64,000 nucleotides of DNA from Candidatus Omnitrophota bacterium (GTDB lineage: Bacteria; Omnitrophota; Gorgyraeia; Gygaellales; Profunditerraquicolaceae). The stretch is from contig JAQURX010000001.1 in NCBI GenBank assembly GCA_028715415.1, positions 24,386-88,385 of the forward strand, read 5' to 3'. The position numbers were made by a program. Of the stretch, positions 33,001-39,000 are shown piece after piece (within the stretch, counting starts at the first letter, position 1; each line of letters opens with the position of its first letter).

Positions 33001-36000
33001 ATTTAGCGCATTTTCTAGATAGCCTTAACCGTCAGACGAGCTGGGAAGCGGAGAAGTGGTTTAATCAGAATAAGCCGATGCGGTTGGGAAGATTCTTTTA
33101 TAGGACAATTGATAGGTTTATGCGTACTTATGTCGGTAAAAAAGGTTATAAAGATGGATTTTATGGTTTTGTGATTGCTTTTTACGCCGGGCTTTATCAA
33201 TTTATGAGTTATTTAAAATATCAAGAAATTTTAATTGAAAGGAGAAACAAAGAATGAAAGTATTGATTACTGGTGGGGCAGGGTTAGTAGGAAGCCATAG
33301 CGCTGAGTTTTTTGCAAAAGAAAATCCAAAGAATAAAGTTATAGTTTTGGATAATTTAATGCGTTCGCAGATATTCGGTTACGATAAGGGTTCTGTTGAG
33401 TTTAATTGGAAGTATCTCGGGCAATTCAAGAATATTGAGCGGATAAAGGGCGATGTCCGCAACGATAAGGATTTGGCAAAGGCTATTGGAAAGGGTGTTG
33501 ATGTCGTAATACATACTGCTGGACAACCCGGAGTCCCTTCAAGTGTGCGTATGCCAAAAGAAGATTTTAGTATCAATGCTTTTGGAACGCTTAATGTATT
33601 AGAAGCGGCACGCAAGAAATCAAAGGATACCATAGTAGTCTATTGTTCAACTAATAAAGTTTACGGAGAAAATGTTGATAGGCTTGAGCTATCAGAAAAA
33701 GAAAAAAGGTATACTTTTCGTGATGTCGCGGGAGTTAATGAAAGCATGTCAACTGATTTGACCGGGCATACTCCGTATGGAGTTTCAAAACTCGTCGGTG
33801 ATTTGTATATTCAGGAATACAGCCATATTTATAAGATGAAAACAGGTGTATTTAGAATGTCTTGTACATATGGAACACGCCAATTTGGTTTTGAAGATCA
33901 GGGTTGGGTTGCTTGGTTTATCATAGCAACGTTGTTTAAACGCCCGATTACTATATATGGGAATGGTAAACAAGTTCGTGACATGCTTTATGCAGATGAT
34001 TTAGTAGATGCATTTAATCGGTTCATTAATAGTGATTTAGAAAGAGGGCTTTTTAATATTGGCGGAGGCCCTGAAAATACAATATCACTTTTAGAGTTTC
34101 TTGATGAATTGGAGATTTTGGTTGGAAAGAAGCCAAAGGTAAAATTTGCTAATTGGCGGCCTTCAGACCAGAAAGTTTATATTACTGATACTTCTAAACT
34201 TCAAAGTTCTCTAAATTGGAAAATTAAGACTCCAGTTAAGGAAGGTTTAAGAAAACTTACGGAATGGGTTAAGGCAAATGAAAGTTATTTTTCTTGATCG
34301 CGACGGAGTAATAAATAAGTATCCTGGGGACACAAAATATGTTACTTCGCTTAAAGGTTTTCGTTTCTTGCCCAACACAAAGAAAGCAATTAGTTTGTTA
34401 ACGAAGAATAAGTTTAAGATATTCGTTGCATCGAACCAAGCAGGTGTCGGTAAAGGTGTTTATACTCAAGAAGTCCTTAATGCAATTACCGCTTACATGC
34501 TTAAAGAAGTTAAAAAGCAAGATGGTTTAATTGAAAAAGTCTATTATTGTACCCACCGACCGCAAGATAATTGTTCTTGCCGGAAACCCAAGCCCGGGTT
34601 AATCAGGGCTGCAAAAAAAGAATACGCATTAAATCTAAAGGATTCTTTTTTTATCGGAGATACTATCCGCGATATTAATACCGCAAGAGCAGCCGGGTGT
34701 AAATCAATTCTTGTCCTTTCAGGAAAAGAGAAATTATCAAACAAGGAAAATTGGGAAGCTAAGCCGGATTTTGTATTTAAAGATCTTTTTGAAGCCGCAA
34801 AATTCCTGGTCAAACAAAGTTAATTTATCTCTTTCTTAAACGAAATGGAAAAAAAGGCTAAAATTATTATTGCTCATGCTTCTGCTGGTGCAGGGCACCG
34901 CAAAGCAGCAGAGGCAATTTTTGAATATCTAAAGGATTGCCCTGAGCTTGATGTTTGCTTAGTAGATGTTTTAACGCGGACAAATTCATTTTTTAGATTT
35001 AGTTATCAATGGGGTTATTCTTTTCTGGTAAAATATCTTATTTTTTCCTGGGGTTTTCTTTATTGGTTGACTGATTTTAAACCATTTCGTAAATTTGCTA
35101 AATCATTCTGCTTCATGTTAAATAAATCAAATACTAAAGAGTTCTCCAGCCTTTTAATAAAAGAAAACCCCGATTTTGTGATTTCAACTCATTTCTTGCC
35201 TTCAGAGATTACTTCGGATTTAAAAGAAAAAGGATTGATTAGTACTAAGCTTTTTACTATCATTACTGATTTTGGAGTACATTCATTTTGGATTGCTGAT
35301 AAAACTGATTATTATGGCGTTGCGTCTAGTTTCACTAAGAATTGTTTGGTTTCTGAGGGTATTCCAGAAAACAGAATCAAAGAGATTGGTATTCCCGTAG
35401 ATTCAAGATTCCTGGTTAAATATAATAAGAGCGATTTATGTAGGAATATTGGTGTCGATTCTAATAAATTTACAGTTTTGCTTATGACGGGATCTTTTGG
35501 GATCGGGCCTATGAAAGAAATTGCTGAAGTTTTATGTGAGTTTGTGCAGGTAATAGTTGTTTGTGCTGCAAATAAGAAATTATTATCCAGTTTAAACAAA
35601 AGGCAGCTTCCTAATGTAAAAGTACTTGGATTTGTAGATAATGCGTATGAACTAATGGCGGTTTCAGATGTGATTATTACTAAGCCCGGCGGGTTAAGCA
35701 TCTCGGAGATTATTAGTATGGAATTGGTCCCAATTTTTATTTCAGCTATTCCAGGGCAAGAAACTATTAATATAAAAGTTCTAAATGAGTATTCTGTTGG
35801 CGTTGAGCCAAAAACAATTCTAGAAATTAAAAATCTAATCATTGATTATAAAGACCATCCGGAGAAGATTACTAAATTGAAAGATAATATAAAGAGATTA
35901 AAAAAGCCCGGCACTCTTGAGGAGATCCGTAATGTTGTTCGCCAAAATAGTAGTAGGGCTTCCTGTTGAGGGGCCGTTTGACTATATTGTGCCAGATAGC

Positions 36001-39000
36001 CTTAATACGGCAATAAAAGTAGGCTCGAGAGTTTGGGTAAATTTTGCTAACAGAAAAGTTGTTGGTTATGTTGTAGGATTAACGCATAAAAGTGCTATCA
36101 AGCAGCTTAAGCAAATATCAGGTTTGGTAGATTTTAATCCTATCCTTGATAAAAATTCATTTCTCCTCGCTAAAGAAATTTCTTCTTACTATGGTTGTTC
36201 ATTGGGGCAGGCGATTGAAACAATTTACCCAGATTCTCTTAGAAGAGGAAAACCGCTTCAAAATATTATAATTCCACAAGGCCATCCCCAGCTTCCTAAA
36301 AAAGAAGTTATCCTAATTCATGATTTGTCAGGATTCAATAGGTGGGAAGTCTATTTAGAGCATTCAAAGCAAGCTTTAAAGAATAAGGAAGCGGTAGTAA
36401 TCATTTTACCTGATATAAAAGCAGTTTTAAGAGTCAAAGAATTAGTTAAAGAAAAGCTGGGCATTGAACCTACAATTTTATACAGGAATCAACCTAATGA
36501 ATTGGAAGAGTGGAGTAAAATTAAGTCCGGAAAAACTAATTTTGTAATAGGGACTCGTTCAGGTATTTTTGCACCAATGTCAAATCTCGGACTTATAATT
36601 ATCGACGATGAACACGATTATGTTTATAAGCAAGAGCAGTCCCCTCATTATAACGCAAAAACAGTAGCTTTGATGAGGACAGAAATTGATAAAACAAAAT
36701 TAATTCTTGGCAGCAGTTCTCCTTCGTTGGAGAGCTATTACTTGAGTAAAAAGGATAAGCTTAAATTGCAGATTATTCCAAGAAAACTCAATTTTCCACA
36801 AGTACATGTAATTGATACAAGGCGAATATCATTCGAAGATAAGAAGAGAAAGAATATTCTTACTAAGTTTTTGGAAGATGCAGTTTACTCAAGTTTACTT
36901 GCTAAAGGTAAAACGCTTTTATTTTTGAACCGAAGAGGATTTGCAACTTATGCATTTTGCCATAATTGCGCAGTTGCCTTAAAATGCCCTCGTTGCAATA
37001 TTAGTTTGGTGTATCATTTTAAAGAAAATTTATTAAGCTGCCACCATTGTAATTACAAGATTACACCACCTAAAATTTGTCCAAATTGTAATTCCGGATA
37101 TATTAAATTCGCTGGGTTTGGGACGGAAAAAATTGAAAGCGAGCTTTCAAGGATATTTCCTCAGGCTCGCATTAAGTTATTAGATGATGCAAGCCATGTC
37201 GATATCCAAAATGCAGACATATTTATAGCAACAAGCACTATATTTAAATTTACAAAAATAAATTTTGATCTTGTTGGGGTTTTAGCTATCGACGATACTT
37301 TAAACCGAATGGACTTTCGTTCAGGAGAAAAAGCATTTTCTATTATTTCCGGGTTAGTAAGCCTTACAGAAAATAAGATTATCATTCAGAGCAGTTTTCC
37401 TGGGCACTATTGTTTACAGGCATTTTTGAAGAAAGACCCAATTTCATTTTATGAGCAAGAATTAAGCTTAAGAAAAGAATTGGATTATCCTCCTTATAAG
37501 CATATGATTTTGGTTAAACTTCGTTCTGAGATAGAGGAAAAATCCAAAACTGCCTGCCTTACTTTATTTGATAAATTAAGAAAATCCAACAAAGAAAAGG
37601 CTATTAAAATTGTTTCAGTTAATGCCGGCATGCCTGCGAAATTAAGAGGTAAATTTTATTGGCAGATAATGATTCTTGCGGGAGATGCCAAGGAGGCAAA
37701 TAAATTCTTAAAAAATCAATTAGCAGATTTTTTGCATTCAGGTATAATAGTTACAATAGACGTGGATCCAGTTTAAATTATCCTTTTGGAAAGGTGAAAT
37801 TTTGTAATGAATATAATCTTTTTTGGTAGCTCACAATTTGCTCAAAGTTCATTAGCAGCTTTGCTTGAAAGAGGCTATAAAGTTTCTTGTGTCGTTACTC
37901 AGCCTGATAGAAAGAAAGGTAGAGGAATGCATTTGGAGCCTACTTCTGTTAAAGCTTTGGCAATAGAACACGGTTTAGAAGTTTATCAGCCGGATGATAT
38001 AAACACGAATGAATCCGGTAGCTTCTTAAATAAGTTTAAGCCTAATTTATTTGTTGTTGTTGCGTACGGCCAGATTTTATCCGAAGAAGTTTTAAAAATC
38101 CCGAGTGTTTTTTCGATAAATGCCCACGCGTCATTATTACCTAAATACCGAGGAGCTTCTCCGATTAACCGCGCATTAATTAACTCCGAAGTTAAAACTG
38201 GGGTAACGATTATTAAATTAACTAAGAATATGGATGCTGGCCCAATAATCGCTCAGGAAGAGATCTTAATTAAAAACGAAGACGACTCTATTATTTTGGG
38301 AGAAAAGTTATCAAAGCTTTCTGCTGAGCTTTTAATCAAGGCAATTATAGCGATAGAGAATAACAAGTATGAATTATTGGAGCAAGACGAAAATAAAGTT
38401 AGTTTTGCTCCTAAGCTTAAAAAAGATGACGGCTTAATCAATTGGAGTAAGAGCGCTAATCAAATTAATGATTTAATCCGCGGCTGCCTGCCTTGGCCCG
38501 GAGCTTTTACTCATTACAATTCTAAATTGTTAAAGATATTCCGGGCTGAAGTTGGCTCGATTCAGAATTTAGATTTACCCGGTAAGATAATTGAAATCTC
38601 CAAAGAAGGCCTCCGTGTGTCTACTTCCAAAGATAGCTTAATTATCAAAGAATTACAGATTGAGGGCAAGAGAAGGATGAAGGTGGAAGAATTTATTGCC
38701 GGCCATAAGATTTGCGTCGGAGAAATGTTAAAATAAGAAACTATTTGATTTTAAGTTATTCTTCTGATAAAATTATTCTTTAAATAGAAAGATCAAAAAA
38801 TATGCCAGAATTAAGAAAAGATCCGGTTATAGGAAGGTGGGTTATCATTGCAACTGAAAGGGCAAGAAGGCCTGATCAGTTTTCAACCCAGCCGCATGAA
38901 GGCCCTGTTGAAGGCAAATGCCCTTTTTGCGAAGGCGTTGAATCTCAGACACCTCCTGAAATATACGCCGTAAGGCCTAACCGCAGCGCTCCAAATACTC

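What the first reader, a model, noticed from the sequence alone, without database searches (positions are those of the whole stretch)
35932..37776. PriA with naturally degenerate Walker A (Lys to Arg, Thr to Trp) but intact motif II and zinc-binding region
Where PriA proteins have GVTGSGKTEVY, this protein has DLSGFNRWEVY. IIIDDEHD and the Cys-rich zinc region are retained. The Lys to Arg change matches the engineered helicase-dead priA300 (K230R) allele of E. coli, which still assembles the primosome. This organism may use PriA only as a loader without ATPase or helicase activity.
Basis: partly seen in the sequence, partly recalled or inferred. Interest (0 to 1): 0.5.

Follow-up and report, generated by a model that had tools for sequence, protein, structure and literature searches.

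The report
ATPase-dead PriA in an Omnitrophota lineage
This bacterium's replication-restart protein PriA keeps its DNA-fork-binding and zinc-binding parts but has lost nearly every residue needed to burn ATP; a whole lineage of the phylum Omnitrophota shares this state under purifying selection, and it resembles the helicase-dead PriA of Deinococcus.

Summary
The 614-aa ORF (35932-37776, +) is PriA, and DLSGFNRW aligns where E. coli and Klebsiella PriA have GVTGSGKT / GITGSGKT. No P-loop lies elsewhere.

The damage goes beyond Walker A. The Q motif and motifs III, V and VI, including both arginine fingers, are also lost. The 3' end-binding pocket, the Ic/ARL/IV DNA-contact motifs, all eight zinc cysteines and the C-terminal domain are kept.

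This is a lineage trait. All 120 closest homologues (Omnitrophota MAGs) share it, as do 76 more distant cluster representatives. dN/dS is 0.17-0.19, like neighbouring housekeeping genes.

Other Omnitrophota carry a fully canonical PriA in the same MGDG-synthase/priA/fmt/galT/galT/gapdh block, and partly degenerate forms exist. The loss therefore happened inside the phylum, at the orthologous locus.

The most likely function is ATP-independent recognition of abandoned forks and replisome reloading. This matches the biochemically shown Deinococcus radiodurans PriA pseudohelicase (also Lys-to-Arg) and E. coli priA300. Mycobacteriales PriAs show the same pattern.

I rate it a new member of a known kind, of moderate interest. 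Not tested: ATPase activity, and whether a second PriA or which helicase loader exists elsewhere in the genome.

The parts
35932..37776 (+). priA gene, 614 aa, degenerate ('pseudohelicase') form
   Evidence: ORF and translation. TIGR00595 387 bits, above cutoff 230. PriA Pfam domains. AF2 pLDDT 89.3 and Foldseek top hits all PriA.
35919..35924 (+). GAGGAG ribosome-binding site, 7 nt before the ATG; supports ATG 35932 rather than TTG 35917 as the start
   Evidence: Sequence read. The 614-aa product equals the database protein P0001 at 100% identity and coverage.
35944..36231 (+). 3' DNA-binding domain (aa 5-100); pocket residues F16, D17, Y18, K60 kept
   Evidence: Pfam PF17764, E 1.2e-23. F16/D17/Y18 are 100% conserved in the close clade and 72-76 of 76 in distant representatives.
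36292..36831 (+). RecA-like lobe 1 (aa 121-300): fold kept, ATP site lost
   Evidence: AF2 strand/helix pattern at high pLDDT. dN/dS 0.21-0.30. Mean pairwise identity 0.58, against 0.70 in canonical relatives.
36319..36354 (+). Degenerate motif I (Walker A) HDLSGFNRWEVY: G224D, S228F, G229N, K230R, T231W in E. coli numbering
   Evidence: Alignments. Clade consensus is hDLDGxARWDIY.
36595..36669 (+). Motif II (DDEHD) and the aromatic-rich loop (YKQ..P.Y) that wedges into the fork junction in E. coli PriA
   Evidence: E227, K233, Q234 and Y240 are invariant in the clade. D225 is 88% conserved and position 226 is Glu in 76%. Role of the loop from PMC10175261.
36706..36726 (+). Degenerate motif III: LGSSSPS where canonical forms have LGSATPS
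   Evidence: A357 and T358 are 100% conserved in canonical Omnitrophota PriA and variable here.
36916..36942 (+). Motif IV LLFLNRRGF, the ssDNA-contacting arginines of the PriA pore, kept
   Evidence: N333 98%, R334 97%, G336 and F337 100%. Role of R427/R428 from PMC13594977.
36958..37101 (+). Cysteine-rich (two-zinc) region, aa 343-390, all 8 Cys kept
   Evidence: Pfam PF18319. The 8 Cys are 100% conserved in the close clade and 76/76 in distant representatives. This is the most conserved domain of the degenerate clade (0.71).
37222..37260 (+). Degenerate motif V: FIATSTIFKFTKI where canonical forms have LVGTQMLAKGLDF
37342..37374 (+). Degenerate motif VI: IISGLVSLTEN where canonical forms have LLTQVAGRAGRG; both arginine fingers lost and a 5-aa deletion
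   Evidence: R584 is 0/76 and R587 is deleted in 76/76 distant representatives.
37492..37770 (+). PriA C-terminal domain (aa 521-613)
   Evidence: Pfam PF18074, E 5e-12. dN/dS 0.07-0.12, the most constrained part.
34845..35969 (+). Upstream MGDG-synthase-like glycosyltransferase gene; overlaps the priA start by 38 nt; syntenic anchor
   Evidence: The same neighbour appears in loci L003, L005, L007, L008, L010-L014 and L016.
37807..38736 (+). fmt (methionyl-tRNA formyltransferase), downstream syntenic anchor
   Evidence: Pfam Formyl_trans_N/C. fmt lies just downstream of priA, separated by at most one small gene, in 11 of 12 Omnitrophota loci examined; L011 ends at priA.

Best explanation
The gene is the single, orthologous priA of an Omnitrophota lineage in which PriA has become a pseudohelicase.

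Shown: it keeps the PriA fold and every element that E. coli PriA uses to grip an abandoned fork. These are the 3'-end pocket of the 3'BD, the motif Ic and aromatic-rich-loop contacts at the junction, the motif IV arginines that line the lagging-strand ssDNA pore, the two-zinc cysteine-rich region and the C-terminal domain. It has lost the residues that bind and hydrolyse ATP: the Q motif, the P-loop glycines, Lys and Thr, motif III, motif V and both motif VI arginine fingers. It is maintained by purifying selection.

Inferred: it cannot hydrolyse ATP or unwind DNA. It still recognises forks or D-loops by structure and nucleates reloading of the replicative helicase. This is what E. coli PriA-K230R (priA300) does in the PriA-PriB pathway, and what D. 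radiodurans PriA appears to do by binding DnaB directly.

Inferred consequence: restart would be limited to forks whose lagging-strand arm is already single-stranded, or would depend on another helicase to clear that arm.
For: Identity as PriA:
- TIGR00595 scores 387 bits against a cutoff of 230, and the protein has the PriA-specific Pfam domains.
- phmmer against the PDB gives E 1e-68 to PriA.
- The AF2 model has pLDDT 89.3 and pTM 0.88. Its top nine Foldseek hits are all PriA, with TMq up to 0.90.

Loss of the ATP site, compared with the canonical Omnitrophota clade:
- Q203 is 100% conserved in canonical forms and variable or deleted here.
- G224D, S228x, G229x, K230R (92%) and T231W (96%).
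- A357 and T358 lost.
- G538, Q540 and G545 lost.
- Q580G, R584L (94%) and R587 to K/N.
- The deletions are shown.

Retention of DNA and zinc elements:
- F16, D17 and Y18 100%; R209 and S210 98-100%; YKQ 98-100%; N333 and R334 97-98%; all 8 Cys 100%; E399 95%.
- The same split holds over 76 representatives down to 32% identity. Cys are 76/76, Y18 is 76/76 and E322 is 73/76. The Walker A Lys is kept in only 9/76, the Walker B Asp in 31/76 and R584 in 0/76.

Selection:
- dN/dS is 0.17 and 0.19 in two independent close pairs (RecA lobes 0.11-0.30). The neighbours give fmt 0.18-0.25, the MGDG-synthase-like gene 0.24, the epimerase 0.09 and galT 0.11.
- The PriA/fmt identity ratio is about 0.93-0.99 inside the degenerate clade, the same as inside the canonical clade.

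Orthology:
- Four of four canonical loci, one of one intermediate locus and seven of seven degenerate loci (including the window; L006 repeats L005) lie in the same MGDG_synth...priA-fmt block. Six of them also show galT-galT-gapdh downstream.
- Only one PriA-like gene is in the window.

Precedent for function without ATPase:
- D. radiodurans PriA has no ATPase or helicase activity but binds ssDNA, forks and DnaB (PMC4504706).
- priA300 supports restart through PriA-PriB (PMC5778457; PMC13594977).
Against: - No biochemistry was done. ATPase loss is inferred from motifs.
- In this protein and its close clade an Arg sits at the Lys position and the acidic motif II is largely kept, so weak nucleotide binding cannot be formally excluded.
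- The rest of the genome was not scanned. A second canonical PriA elsewhere is therefore not excluded, nor do I know which helicase or loader (DnaB, DciA, DnaC/I) this PriA would work with.
- None of these genes is in the 64-kb window, which is almost entirely glycan-biosynthesis genes.
- The neighbour-joining tree that groups all degenerate forms may be affected by long-branch attraction.
Confidence: 0.75

Rival explanations
1. The genome also encodes a canonical PriA elsewhere. This copy would then be a diverged paralogue with a different or accessory role, so the organism does not rely on a helicase-dead PriA.
For: A large family of fully canonical PriAs (~666-673 aa, with DEAD, Helicase_C and ResIII Pfam hits) is also labelled Candidatus Omnitrophota.
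Against: - All four canonical Omnitrophota PriAs examined occupy the same locus as the degenerate ones: MGDG_synth...priA-(TPR)-fmt, followed by galT-galT-gapdh in L010 and L012 (compared and the window). One of them is on the 1.43-Mb contig CP070780.1. They are therefore alternatives at one locus, not a second locus.
- A partly degenerate form sits at the same locus.
- No contig length is shared between the 120 degenerate and the 120 canonical hits listed.
- The window has a single PriA-like gene.
Confidence: 0.07
2. The protein is still an ATPase or helicase that uses non-canonical residues, with Arg137 replacing the P-loop Lys and the DDEH box intact.
For: Arg keeps the positive charge. Motif II (D225, D226, E227, H228) is present in this protein, and E227 is invariant in the clade.
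Against: - The same K-to-R change alone abolishes E. coli PriA ATPase, helicase and translocase activity (PMC5778457).
- The Mg-coordinating Thr is Trp, and two P-loop Gly residues are gone.
- The adenine-reading Q motif is deleted, and both motif VI arginine fingers are lost along with a 5-aa deletion.
- Across the wider clade these positions drift freely: Lys 9/76, Arg 37/76, the rest other residues; Walker B Asp 31/76. That is the signature of an unselected site.
- Pfam DEAD, Helicase_C and ResIII models no longer detect the domain.
Confidence: 0.04
3. The gene is a decaying relic with no function.
For: Many catalytic motifs are lost. The RecA lobes are less conserved than in canonical relatives (0.58 and 0.61, against 0.70 and 0.74).
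Against: - The ORF is intact in more than 120 clusters at 90% identity and in 76 representatives at 50% identity.
- dN/dS is 0.17-0.19, with every domain at or below 0.30 except a 42-codon segment.
- Seventy-one columns are invariant over 65 sequences.
- The 3'BD, CRR and CTD are more conserved than in canonical relatives.
- The AF2 model is confident.
Confidence: 0.03
4. The protein has been recruited to a job other than replication restart, for example a structure-specific DNA-binding factor in recombination, repair or regulation. The former ATP pocket would then be rebuilt as a new interaction or ligand site.
For: A new set of residues is conserved specifically in the degenerate clade at or near former ATP-site positions: D131, R137, W138, Y184, R185 (100%), H239, K327, F445 and L478. 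This indicates replacement rather than simple decay in this sub-clade.
Against: - All fork-recognition elements of PriA are retained, and the gene stays in the ancestral priA-fmt locus.
- R and W are not conserved across the wider degenerate clade, so they are not required for the shared function.
- No alternative partner or ligand is indicated by the neighbourhood, which is glycan biosynthesis.
Confidence: 0.1

Closest known systems
Deinococcus radiodurans / Deinococcus-Thermus PriA pseudohelicase (Lopper, Boone & Morrow 2015, PMC4504706)
   Same: It is a natural PriA with the Walker A Lys replaced by Arg and degenerate helicase motifs. The trait is shared by a whole lineage. That protein was shown to lack ATPase and helicase activity while still binding ssDNA, forks and DnaB.
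   Different: The origin is independent. The Omnitrophota forms descend from a canonical PriA at the same locus within the phylum. Here motif II is largely kept in the close clade, whereas it is described as poor in Deinococcus-Thermus. No biochemistry exists for the Omnitrophota protein. I could not obtain a Deinococcus sequence for direct comparison.
E. coli priA300 (PriA K230R), engineered
   Same: It carries the identical Lys-to-Arg change. ATPase, helicase and translocase activities are abolished, yet primosome assembly and PriA-PriB restart still work (PMC5778457; PMC13594977).
   Different: priA300 is a single substitution in an otherwise intact motor, and it fails in the PriA-PriC pathway. 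Here six motifs are degenerate. The winged-helix domain is absent, as it also is in canonical Omnitrophota PriA. PriB, DnaT and PriC are not known for this phylum.
Canonical PriA (E. coli, K. pneumoniae; PDB 4NL4, 6DCR, 6DGD, 8FAK)
   Same: The domain order is the same (3'BD, two RecA-like lobes with an inserted two-zinc CRR, then the CTD) and so is the fold, with TMq 0.74-0.90. The DNA-contact residues are the same.
   Different: There is no winged-helix domain and no functional ATP site. The protein is about 120 aa shorter than E. coli PriA. The PriB-docking residues D438, T482 and H483 are not conserved: the window protein has N, G and Y there.
Canonical Omnitrophota PriA (family of P0161 / P0385, ~666-673 aa)
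   Same: Same phylum and same syntenic locus. It also lacks the winged-helix domain. Identity is 35-39%.
   Different: All helicase motifs are intact: GxTASGKT, DEEH, SAT, GTQMxAKG and QVAGRAGRG in 120/120 members. It also has the Q-motif segment and about 55 more residues.
Mycobacteriales PriA ('primosome assembly protein PriA' / 'Probable replication restart protein PriA')
   Same: It shows the same partition. Of 120 homologues of the Tsukamurella protein (Rhodococcus, Nocardia, Prescottella, Mycolicibacterium), 119 lack a Walker A and 110 lack GRxGR. At the same time 119 keep at least four CxxC pairs and an RRG-type motif IV.
   Different: The sequences are far more diverged: 22% identity to the window protein, and NCBIfam PRK14873 models score 43-186 bits here against 459 for PRK05580. 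Motif I is deleted rather than substituted, and motif II is lost (WDDGD). It is a separate lineage.

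Membership tests
PriA (primosomal protein N', TIGR00595) | Family HMM score above the curated cutoff | tested here: met
   TIGR00595 scores 387.2 bits against a cutoff of 230.35, covering model positions 2-509 of 509.
PriA (primosomal protein N', TIGR00595) | N-terminal 3' DNA-binding domain with the 3'-end pocket | tested here: met
   PF17764 83 bits, full length. F16, D17, Y18 and K60 are conserved.
PriA (primosomal protein N', TIGR00595) | Cysteine-rich two-zinc insertion in RecA lobe 2 (four CxxC pairs) | tested here: met
   PF18319. Eight Cys align to E. coli C436, C439, C445, C448, C463, C466, C476 and C479.
PriA (primosomal protein N', TIGR00595) | PriA C-terminal domain | tested here: met
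   PF18074 46.9 bits against a cutoff of 26.9.
PriA (primosomal protein N', TIGR00595) | Overall PriA fold | tested here: met
   The AF2 model has pLDDT 89.3. The top nine Foldseek PDB hits are all PriA, E 3.5e-54 to 6e-39, and the next hit (Mfd) is at 2e-12.
PriA (primosomal protein N', TIGR00595) | Orthologous genomic position | tested here: met
   It lies in the same MGDG_synth-priA-fmt-galT-galT-gapdh block as canonical Omnitrophota PriA.
PriA (primosomal protein N', TIGR00595) | Winged-helix domain between the 3'BD and the helicase core | tested here: not met
   E. coli residues ~115-195 have no counterpart. They are also absent in canonical Omnitrophota PriA, so this is a phylum trait and not part of the degeneration.
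Active SF2 DNA helicase / ATPase | Walker A [AG]xxxxGK[ST] (motif I) | tested here: not met
   The aligned position reads DLSGFNRW, and no match occurs anywhere in any frame.
Active SF2 DNA helicase / ATPase | Walker B DExH (motif II) | tested here: met
   DDEH at aa 225-228. In the wider clade the Asp is kept in only 31/76.
Active SF2 DNA helicase / ATPase | Q motif, motif III (SAT), motif V and the motif VI arginine fingers | tested here: not met
   The Q203 segment is deleted or variable. SAT reads SSS, GTQMxAKG reads ATSTIFKF, and QxxGRxGR reads GLVSLTEN.
Active SF2 DNA helicase / ATPase | ATP hydrolysis and strand separation | not testable with these tools
   Requires purified protein.
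PriA pseudohelicase (as defined for Deinococcus-Thermus, PMC4504706) | Evolved from a helicase, with Walker A Lys replaced (Lys to Arg) and the motifs departing from consensus across a lineage | tested here: met
   K230R in 92% of the close clade. Canonical orthologues occupy the same locus in sister lineages.
PriA pseudohelicase (as defined for Deinococcus-Thermus, PMC4504706) | No ATPase or helicase activity, with ssDNA, fork and DnaB binding retained | not testable with these tools
   Only inferred from the residues lost and retained.
PriA pseudohelicase (as defined for Deinococcus-Thermus, PMC4504706) | Common descent with the Deinococcus-Thermus proteins | tested here: inconclusive
   No Deinococcus sequence could be retrieved. 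Indirect evidence points to independent origin: the nearest relatives are canonical Omnitrophota PriAs at the same locus.

The most novel reading that the evidence does not exclude
In this Omnitrophota sub-clade the former ATP pocket was not simply abandoned but rebuilt. A clade-specific conserved set (D131, R137, W138, Y184, R185, H239, K327, F445, L478) would fill or bridge the inter-lobe cleft, acting as a built-in 'ligand' or a new partner-docking site. That would lock the two RecA-like lobes in one geometry and turn PriA from a motor into a static, structure-specific fork clamp. Because canonical, intermediate and dead forms all sit at one locus within the phylum, the series would also be a natural dissection of which PriA features are needed for helicase-independent replisome reloading in bacteria that lack PriB and DnaT.
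Probability: 0.15. Interest if true: 0.6.

Novelty: new member of a known kind. Interest (0 to 1): 0.4.

Why it matters
[quoted passage not shown] This window shows that a large, environmentally widespread Omnitrophota lineage has independently made the same change. A quick check suggests that Mycobacteriales PriAs have as well.

The conserved, selected core of PriA therefore looks like fork recognition plus the zinc-binding CRR and the CTD, not the motor. This bears on how helicases are reloaded in the many bacteria without PriB, DnaT or PriC.

The Omnitrophota series has practical value. Canonical, partly degenerate and fully degenerate orthologues sit at one syntenic locus. That gives matched proteins for testing which activities PriA needs, and shows the order in which motifs decay once ATPase is no longer selected.

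It also matters for annotation. These proteins are currently labelled simply 'primosomal protein N''.

Tried and rejected
1. **Retrieving D. radiodurans priA.** I searched genome contigs for the published cloning primer, with and without the first base. As a result no GTDB genome could be scanned for a second PriA or for DnaB, DciA or PriB. This is the main gap in the work.
2. **tblastn of E. coli PriA against plasmids**. It gave no Deinococcus or Thermus hit, but did give one actinobacterial PriA, which I used.
3. **Constitutive CRR-UP idea, rejected.** The AF2 model superposes much better on fork/PriB-bound E. coli PriA (8FAK_H, TMq 0.90) than on apo or ADP forms (0.74-0.75). I wondered whether the dead form is locked in the loading-competent CRR-UP state. 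The control model of a canonical Omnitrophota PriA behaves the same way (0.87 against 0.72-0.76), so the effect is not specific.
4. **Hidden P-loop, rejected.** The GKT tripeptides at aa 200 and 326, and the 8 regex hits in relatives, all fall at non-homologous sites whose Lys/Thr vary among relatives.
5. **Winged-helix loss as part of the degeneration, rejected.** Canonical Omnitrophota PriA also lacks the domain.
6. **K-to-R / T-to-W as a functionally required new motif for the whole clade, rejected.** It is conserved only in the window's sub-clade (92-96%). Over 76 distant representatives Arg is found in 37 and Trp in 41.
7. **Literature.** Searches for Omnitrophota plus PriA, and for mycobacterial PriA motif loss, found nothing relevant in the held library.
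8. **Replication genes in the window.** Pfam annotation of the ORFs of 120 aa or more (all but the epimerase-like ORF at 33254-34297 and two antisense ORFs) found none apart from priA.

Full report
**1. What is at the coordinates**

The + strand carries an intact ORF. The ORF listing starts it at TTG 35917, but the ATG at 35932 is preceded by GAGGAG seven nucleotides upstream. The ATG gives a 614-aa product identical over its full length to database protein P0001 = MDD5431421.1, 'primosomal protein N' [Candidatus Omnitrophota bacterium]'. The stop is TAA at 37774-37776.

The protein passes the curated PriA model TIGR00595 (387 bits, cutoff 230). It has Pfam PriA_3primeBD (aa 5-100), Zn_ribbon_PriA (352-376) and PriA_C (521-613). 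The DEAD helicase model reaches only 21 bits, below its cutoff of 26.

**2.

phmmer against solved structures aligns LIHDLSGFNRWEVYL with Klebsiella PriA LLAGITGSGKTEVYL. MAFFT alignments with E. coli PriA (fetched) place R137 at K230 and W138 at T231.

No [AG]xxxxGK[ST] exists anywhere in the protein or in any frame of the region. Two GKT tripeptides (aa 200, 326) lie at non-P-loop positions, and the Thr (at aa 200 also the Lys) varies among relatives.

Several further losses were not reported:
- The segment carrying the Q motif (E. coli Q203) is missing.
- Motif III reads SSS instead of SAT.
- Motif V reads ATSTIFKF instead of GTQMLAKG.
- Motif VI reads GLVSLTEN instead of QVAGRAGR. Both arginine fingers are gone and there is a 5-residue deletion.

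**3. It is a lineage trait, not a quirk of one MAG**

The 120 best database homologues are 50-57% identical and about 614 aa long. Every one that carries a name comes from a Candidatus Omnitrophica/Omnitrophota MAG. All share the degenerate Walker A, with consensus hDLDGxARWDIYL, and the degenerate motifs III, V and VI.

An exhaustive HMMER search of 1.84 billion cluster representatives reached the edge of the group. Among the best 150 hits were three classes:
- 76 short (~600-645 aa) fully degenerate representatives, down to 32% identity.
- A set of ~645-680-aa partly degenerate forms. Some, such as P0219 and P0226, have Walker A intact but motif VI lost.
- Fully canonical PriAs.

Named members of the distant degenerate set are again Omnitrophota. 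They include Candidatus Aceula meridiana and a species assembled on a 1.6-Mb contig. The partly degenerate P0207 cluster is also Omnitrophota.

**4. What is kept and what is lost**

I compared 119 close degenerate sequences with 119 canonical Omnitrophota PriAs.

| Class | Residues (E. coli numbering unless noted) | State in the degenerate clade |
|---|---|---|
| ATP contact | Q203, G224, S228, G229, K230, T231, A357/T358, G538, Q540, G545, Q580, G583, R584, G586, R587 | 100% conserved in the canonical clade; replaced or variable here |
| DNA and zinc contact | F16/D17/Y18/K60 (3' end pocket); G-T-R-S (motif Ic); E322; Y-K-Q...P-x-Y (aromatic-rich loop); FLNR(K/R)GF (motif IV); eight Cys; H455; E492 | 90-100% conserved |

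The same partition holds over the 76 distant representatives:

| Position | Kept in |
|---|---|
| CRR cysteines | 76/76 |
| Y18 | 76/76 |
| F16 | 75/76 |
| E322 | 73/76 |
| R304 | 70/76 |
| N426 | 69/76 |
| Walker A Lys | 9/76 (Arg 37) |
| Trp at T231 | 41/76 |
| Walker B Asp | 31/76 |
| R584 | 0/76 |
| R587 | deleted in 76/76 |

The ATP-site positions therefore drift, while the fork-contact and zinc positions are fixed.

Domain-wise conservation shifts in the same direction. The figures are mean pairwise identity, degenerate clade against canonical clade.

| Domain | Degenerate | Canonical |
|---|---|---|
| 3'BD | 0.63 | 0.55 |
| CRR | 0.71 | 0.62 |
| CTD | 0.59 | 0.47 |
| RecA lobe 1 | 0.58 | 0.70 |
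| RecA lobe 2 | 0.61 | 0.74 |

The roles of these elements come from the E. coli PriA/PriB/fork structure and follow-up work. The HD1 loop is wedged at the junction. The pore around lagging-strand ssDNA is lined by the CRR, HD2 and the CTD. The motif IV arginines R427 and R428 contact ssDNA (PMC10175261; PMC13594977).

**5. The gene is under purifying selection and the protein should fold**

I computed dN/dS (Nei-Gojobori) for two independent close pairs of degenerate genes, fetched and analysed.

| Gene or domain | dN/dS |
|---|---|
| priA, whole gene | 0.17 and 0.19 |
| RecA lobe 1 | 0.21-0.30 |
| RecA lobe 2 | 0.11-0.17 |
| CRR | 0.09-0.24 |
| CTD | 0.07-0.12 |
| fmt (same contigs) | 0.18-0.25 |
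| MGDG-synthase-like gene | 0.24 |
| Epimerase | 0.09 |
| galT | 0.11 |

The ratio of PriA identity to fmt identity is 0.93-0.99 within the degenerate clade and 0.93-1.06 within the canonical clade. It is 0.75-0.90 between the two types. This indicates extra change at the transition and then a normal rate of evolution.

AlphaFold2 with a 65-sequence family alignment gives mean pLDDT 89.3 and pTM 0.88. The nine best Foldseek PDB matches are all PriA.

**6. Orthologue, not extra paralogue**

The nearest canonical protein, P0161 (673 aa, 36-39% identical), heads a large family that is also from Omnitrophota. This raised the possibility of two co-resident genes. Gene order argues against it.

- In the window the order is epimerase, HAD/PNK3P hydrolase, MGDG-synthase-like GT, priA, fmt, galT-like, galT-like, gapdh.
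- Six further degenerate loci examined share the MGDG-priA-fmt core. These are L005 (with its duplicate L006), L008, L013, L014, L015 and L016. Two of them, L005 and L008, run on through galT-galT-gapdh.
- The four canonical loci examined lie in the same block. L003 is on CP070780.1, a 1,432,423-bp record. The others are L010, L011 and L012. A UDG or a short TPR gene is sometimes intercalated.
- The partly degenerate P0207 locus lies in the same block.
- tblastn finds one PriA-like gene per fetched stretch, including the window.
- No contig length is shared between the two hit lists.

The canonical and degenerate forms are therefore alternative states of one locus in different lineages, and the loss arose inside the phylum. 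A neighbour-joining tree puts all short degenerate forms in one clade, with the partly degenerate forms branching between them and P0161/P0167. I treat the topology as indicative only, because long-branch attraction is likely.

Canonical Omnitrophota PriA already lacks the winged-helix domain. That absence is a phylum trait and not part of the degeneration.

**7. Mechanism**

Shown: PriA identity, fold, orthology, loss of the ATP-site residues, retention of the fork and zinc elements, and purifying selection.

Inferred: there is no ATP hydrolysis or unwinding. The protein recognises abandoned forks or D-loops by structure and nucleates reloading of the replicative helicase.

Three published results support the inference.
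- K230R alone abolishes E. coli PriA ATPase, helicase and translocase activity, yet supports primosome assembly and the PriA-PriB pathway in vivo, though not PriA-PriC (PMC5778457; PMC13594977).
- D. radiodurans PriA carries the same Lys-to-Arg change across Deinococcus-Thermus. It has no measurable ATPase or helicase activity but binds ssDNA (Kd about 215 nM), forks (about 109 nM) and DnaB (PMC4504706).
- E. coli PriA can reach the loading-competent CRR-UP state only on a single-stranded lagging arm, and must unwind a duplex arm first.

It follows from the third result that a motor-less PriA should act only on forks with a lagging-strand gap, or should rely on another helicase. This last step is my inference.

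**8. A control that removed an attractive idea**

The model of the window protein matches fork/PriB-bound E. coli PriA (8FAK_H, TMq 0.90, rmsd 4.7) far better than apo, ADP-bound or dsDNA-bound PriA (TMq 0.74-0.75, rmsd about 9). A model of the canonical P0161 does the same (0.87 against 0.72-0.76). Nothing specific to the pseudohelicase can be read from this result.

**9. Comparison with what is known, and novelty**

The closest known case is the Deinococcus-Thermus PriA pseudohelicase. The engineered analogue is priA300.

I also found that an actinobacterial PriA (Tsukamurella) and 119 of its 120 homologues in Rhodococcus, Nocardia, Prescottella and Mycolicibacterium lack a Walker A. They keep at least four CxxC pairs and an RRG-type motif IV, and their precomputed Pfam hits are only the 3'BD and PF27106. 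Motor-less PriA is therefore more common than the literature I could search suggests.

No paper in the held library mentions PriA in Omnitrophota.

I rate the finding a new member of a known kind. Its specific value is the within-phylum series from canonical to dead at one syntenic locus.

**10. Limits**

- No biochemistry was done.
- The remainder of this genome was not examined.
- There was no direct comparison with a Deinococcus sequence.
- The tree is neighbour-joining only.

Noticed in passing
window 1-64000: Every plausible gene (54 ORFs of 120 aa or more) is on the + strand, and GC skew is positive in all 32 two-kb bins. The whole window has strictly co-oriented genes.
   Followed up: no
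window 4104-5570, 9845-11224, 13446-14960, 17005-18462, 50947-52383, 53297-54706, 55705-57273, 58264-59700, 59702-61243: Nine paralogous B12-binding radical-SAM genes are interleaved with many glycosyltransferases, SAM methyltransferases, a Wzy-type ligase and flippases. This is an unusually large glycan-modification island on both sides of priA-fmt. B12-rSAM genes also lie near priA in loci L003, L008 and L011.
   Followed up: partly
window 20328-22550: A carbamoyltransferase (605 aa) is followed by a small SxtJ-like protein (134 aa) within the glycan cluster.
   Followed up: no
window 38802-39827 and 39829-40824: Tandem GalT/HIT-like (DUF4921/DUF4931) paralogues, followed by gapdh, are conserved downstream of fmt in six of the seven distinct Omnitrophota loci that extend far enough, canonical and degenerate alike; the intermediate locus L007 lacks them.
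   Followed up: partly
L003 9313-10017, L007 9312-10004, L011 5323-5994: A uracil-DNA-glycosylase-family gene lies directly upstream of priA, overlapping or abutting it, in two canonical loci and the intermediate locus. It is absent from that position in all degenerate loci, and also from canonical L010 and L012. Any link to the PriA state is unclear.
   Followed up: no
window 18478-20325, 23618-25672, 44888-45928, 47222-49030: Four long ORFs (615, 684, 346 and 602 aa) have no Pfam match at E <= 1e-5, within the glycan cluster.
   Followed up: no
L007 7763-8107, L010 1247-1618, L015 2091-2459: A small 23S_rRNA_IVP / bAvd-like four-helix-bundle gene recurs next to the priA block in three unrelated Omnitrophota loci. 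In L015 it is inserted between priA and fmt.
   Followed up: no
representatives P0219, P0226, P0193, P0197: Some ~650-820-aa PriAs branching near the Omnitrophota forms have motif VI damaged in two (P0219, P0226) while Walker A is intact, or the reverse. This suggests the motifs decay in no fixed order once ATPase is dispensable. Their taxonomy is unknown; only P0219 was looked up and it carries no name.
   Followed up: partly
L009 (NZ_LR134460.1, Tsukamurella tyrosinosolvens 'plasmid 18'): This 360-kb 'plasmid' record carries coaBC, metK and priA. It looks like a chromosome fragment filed as a plasmid.
   Followed up: no
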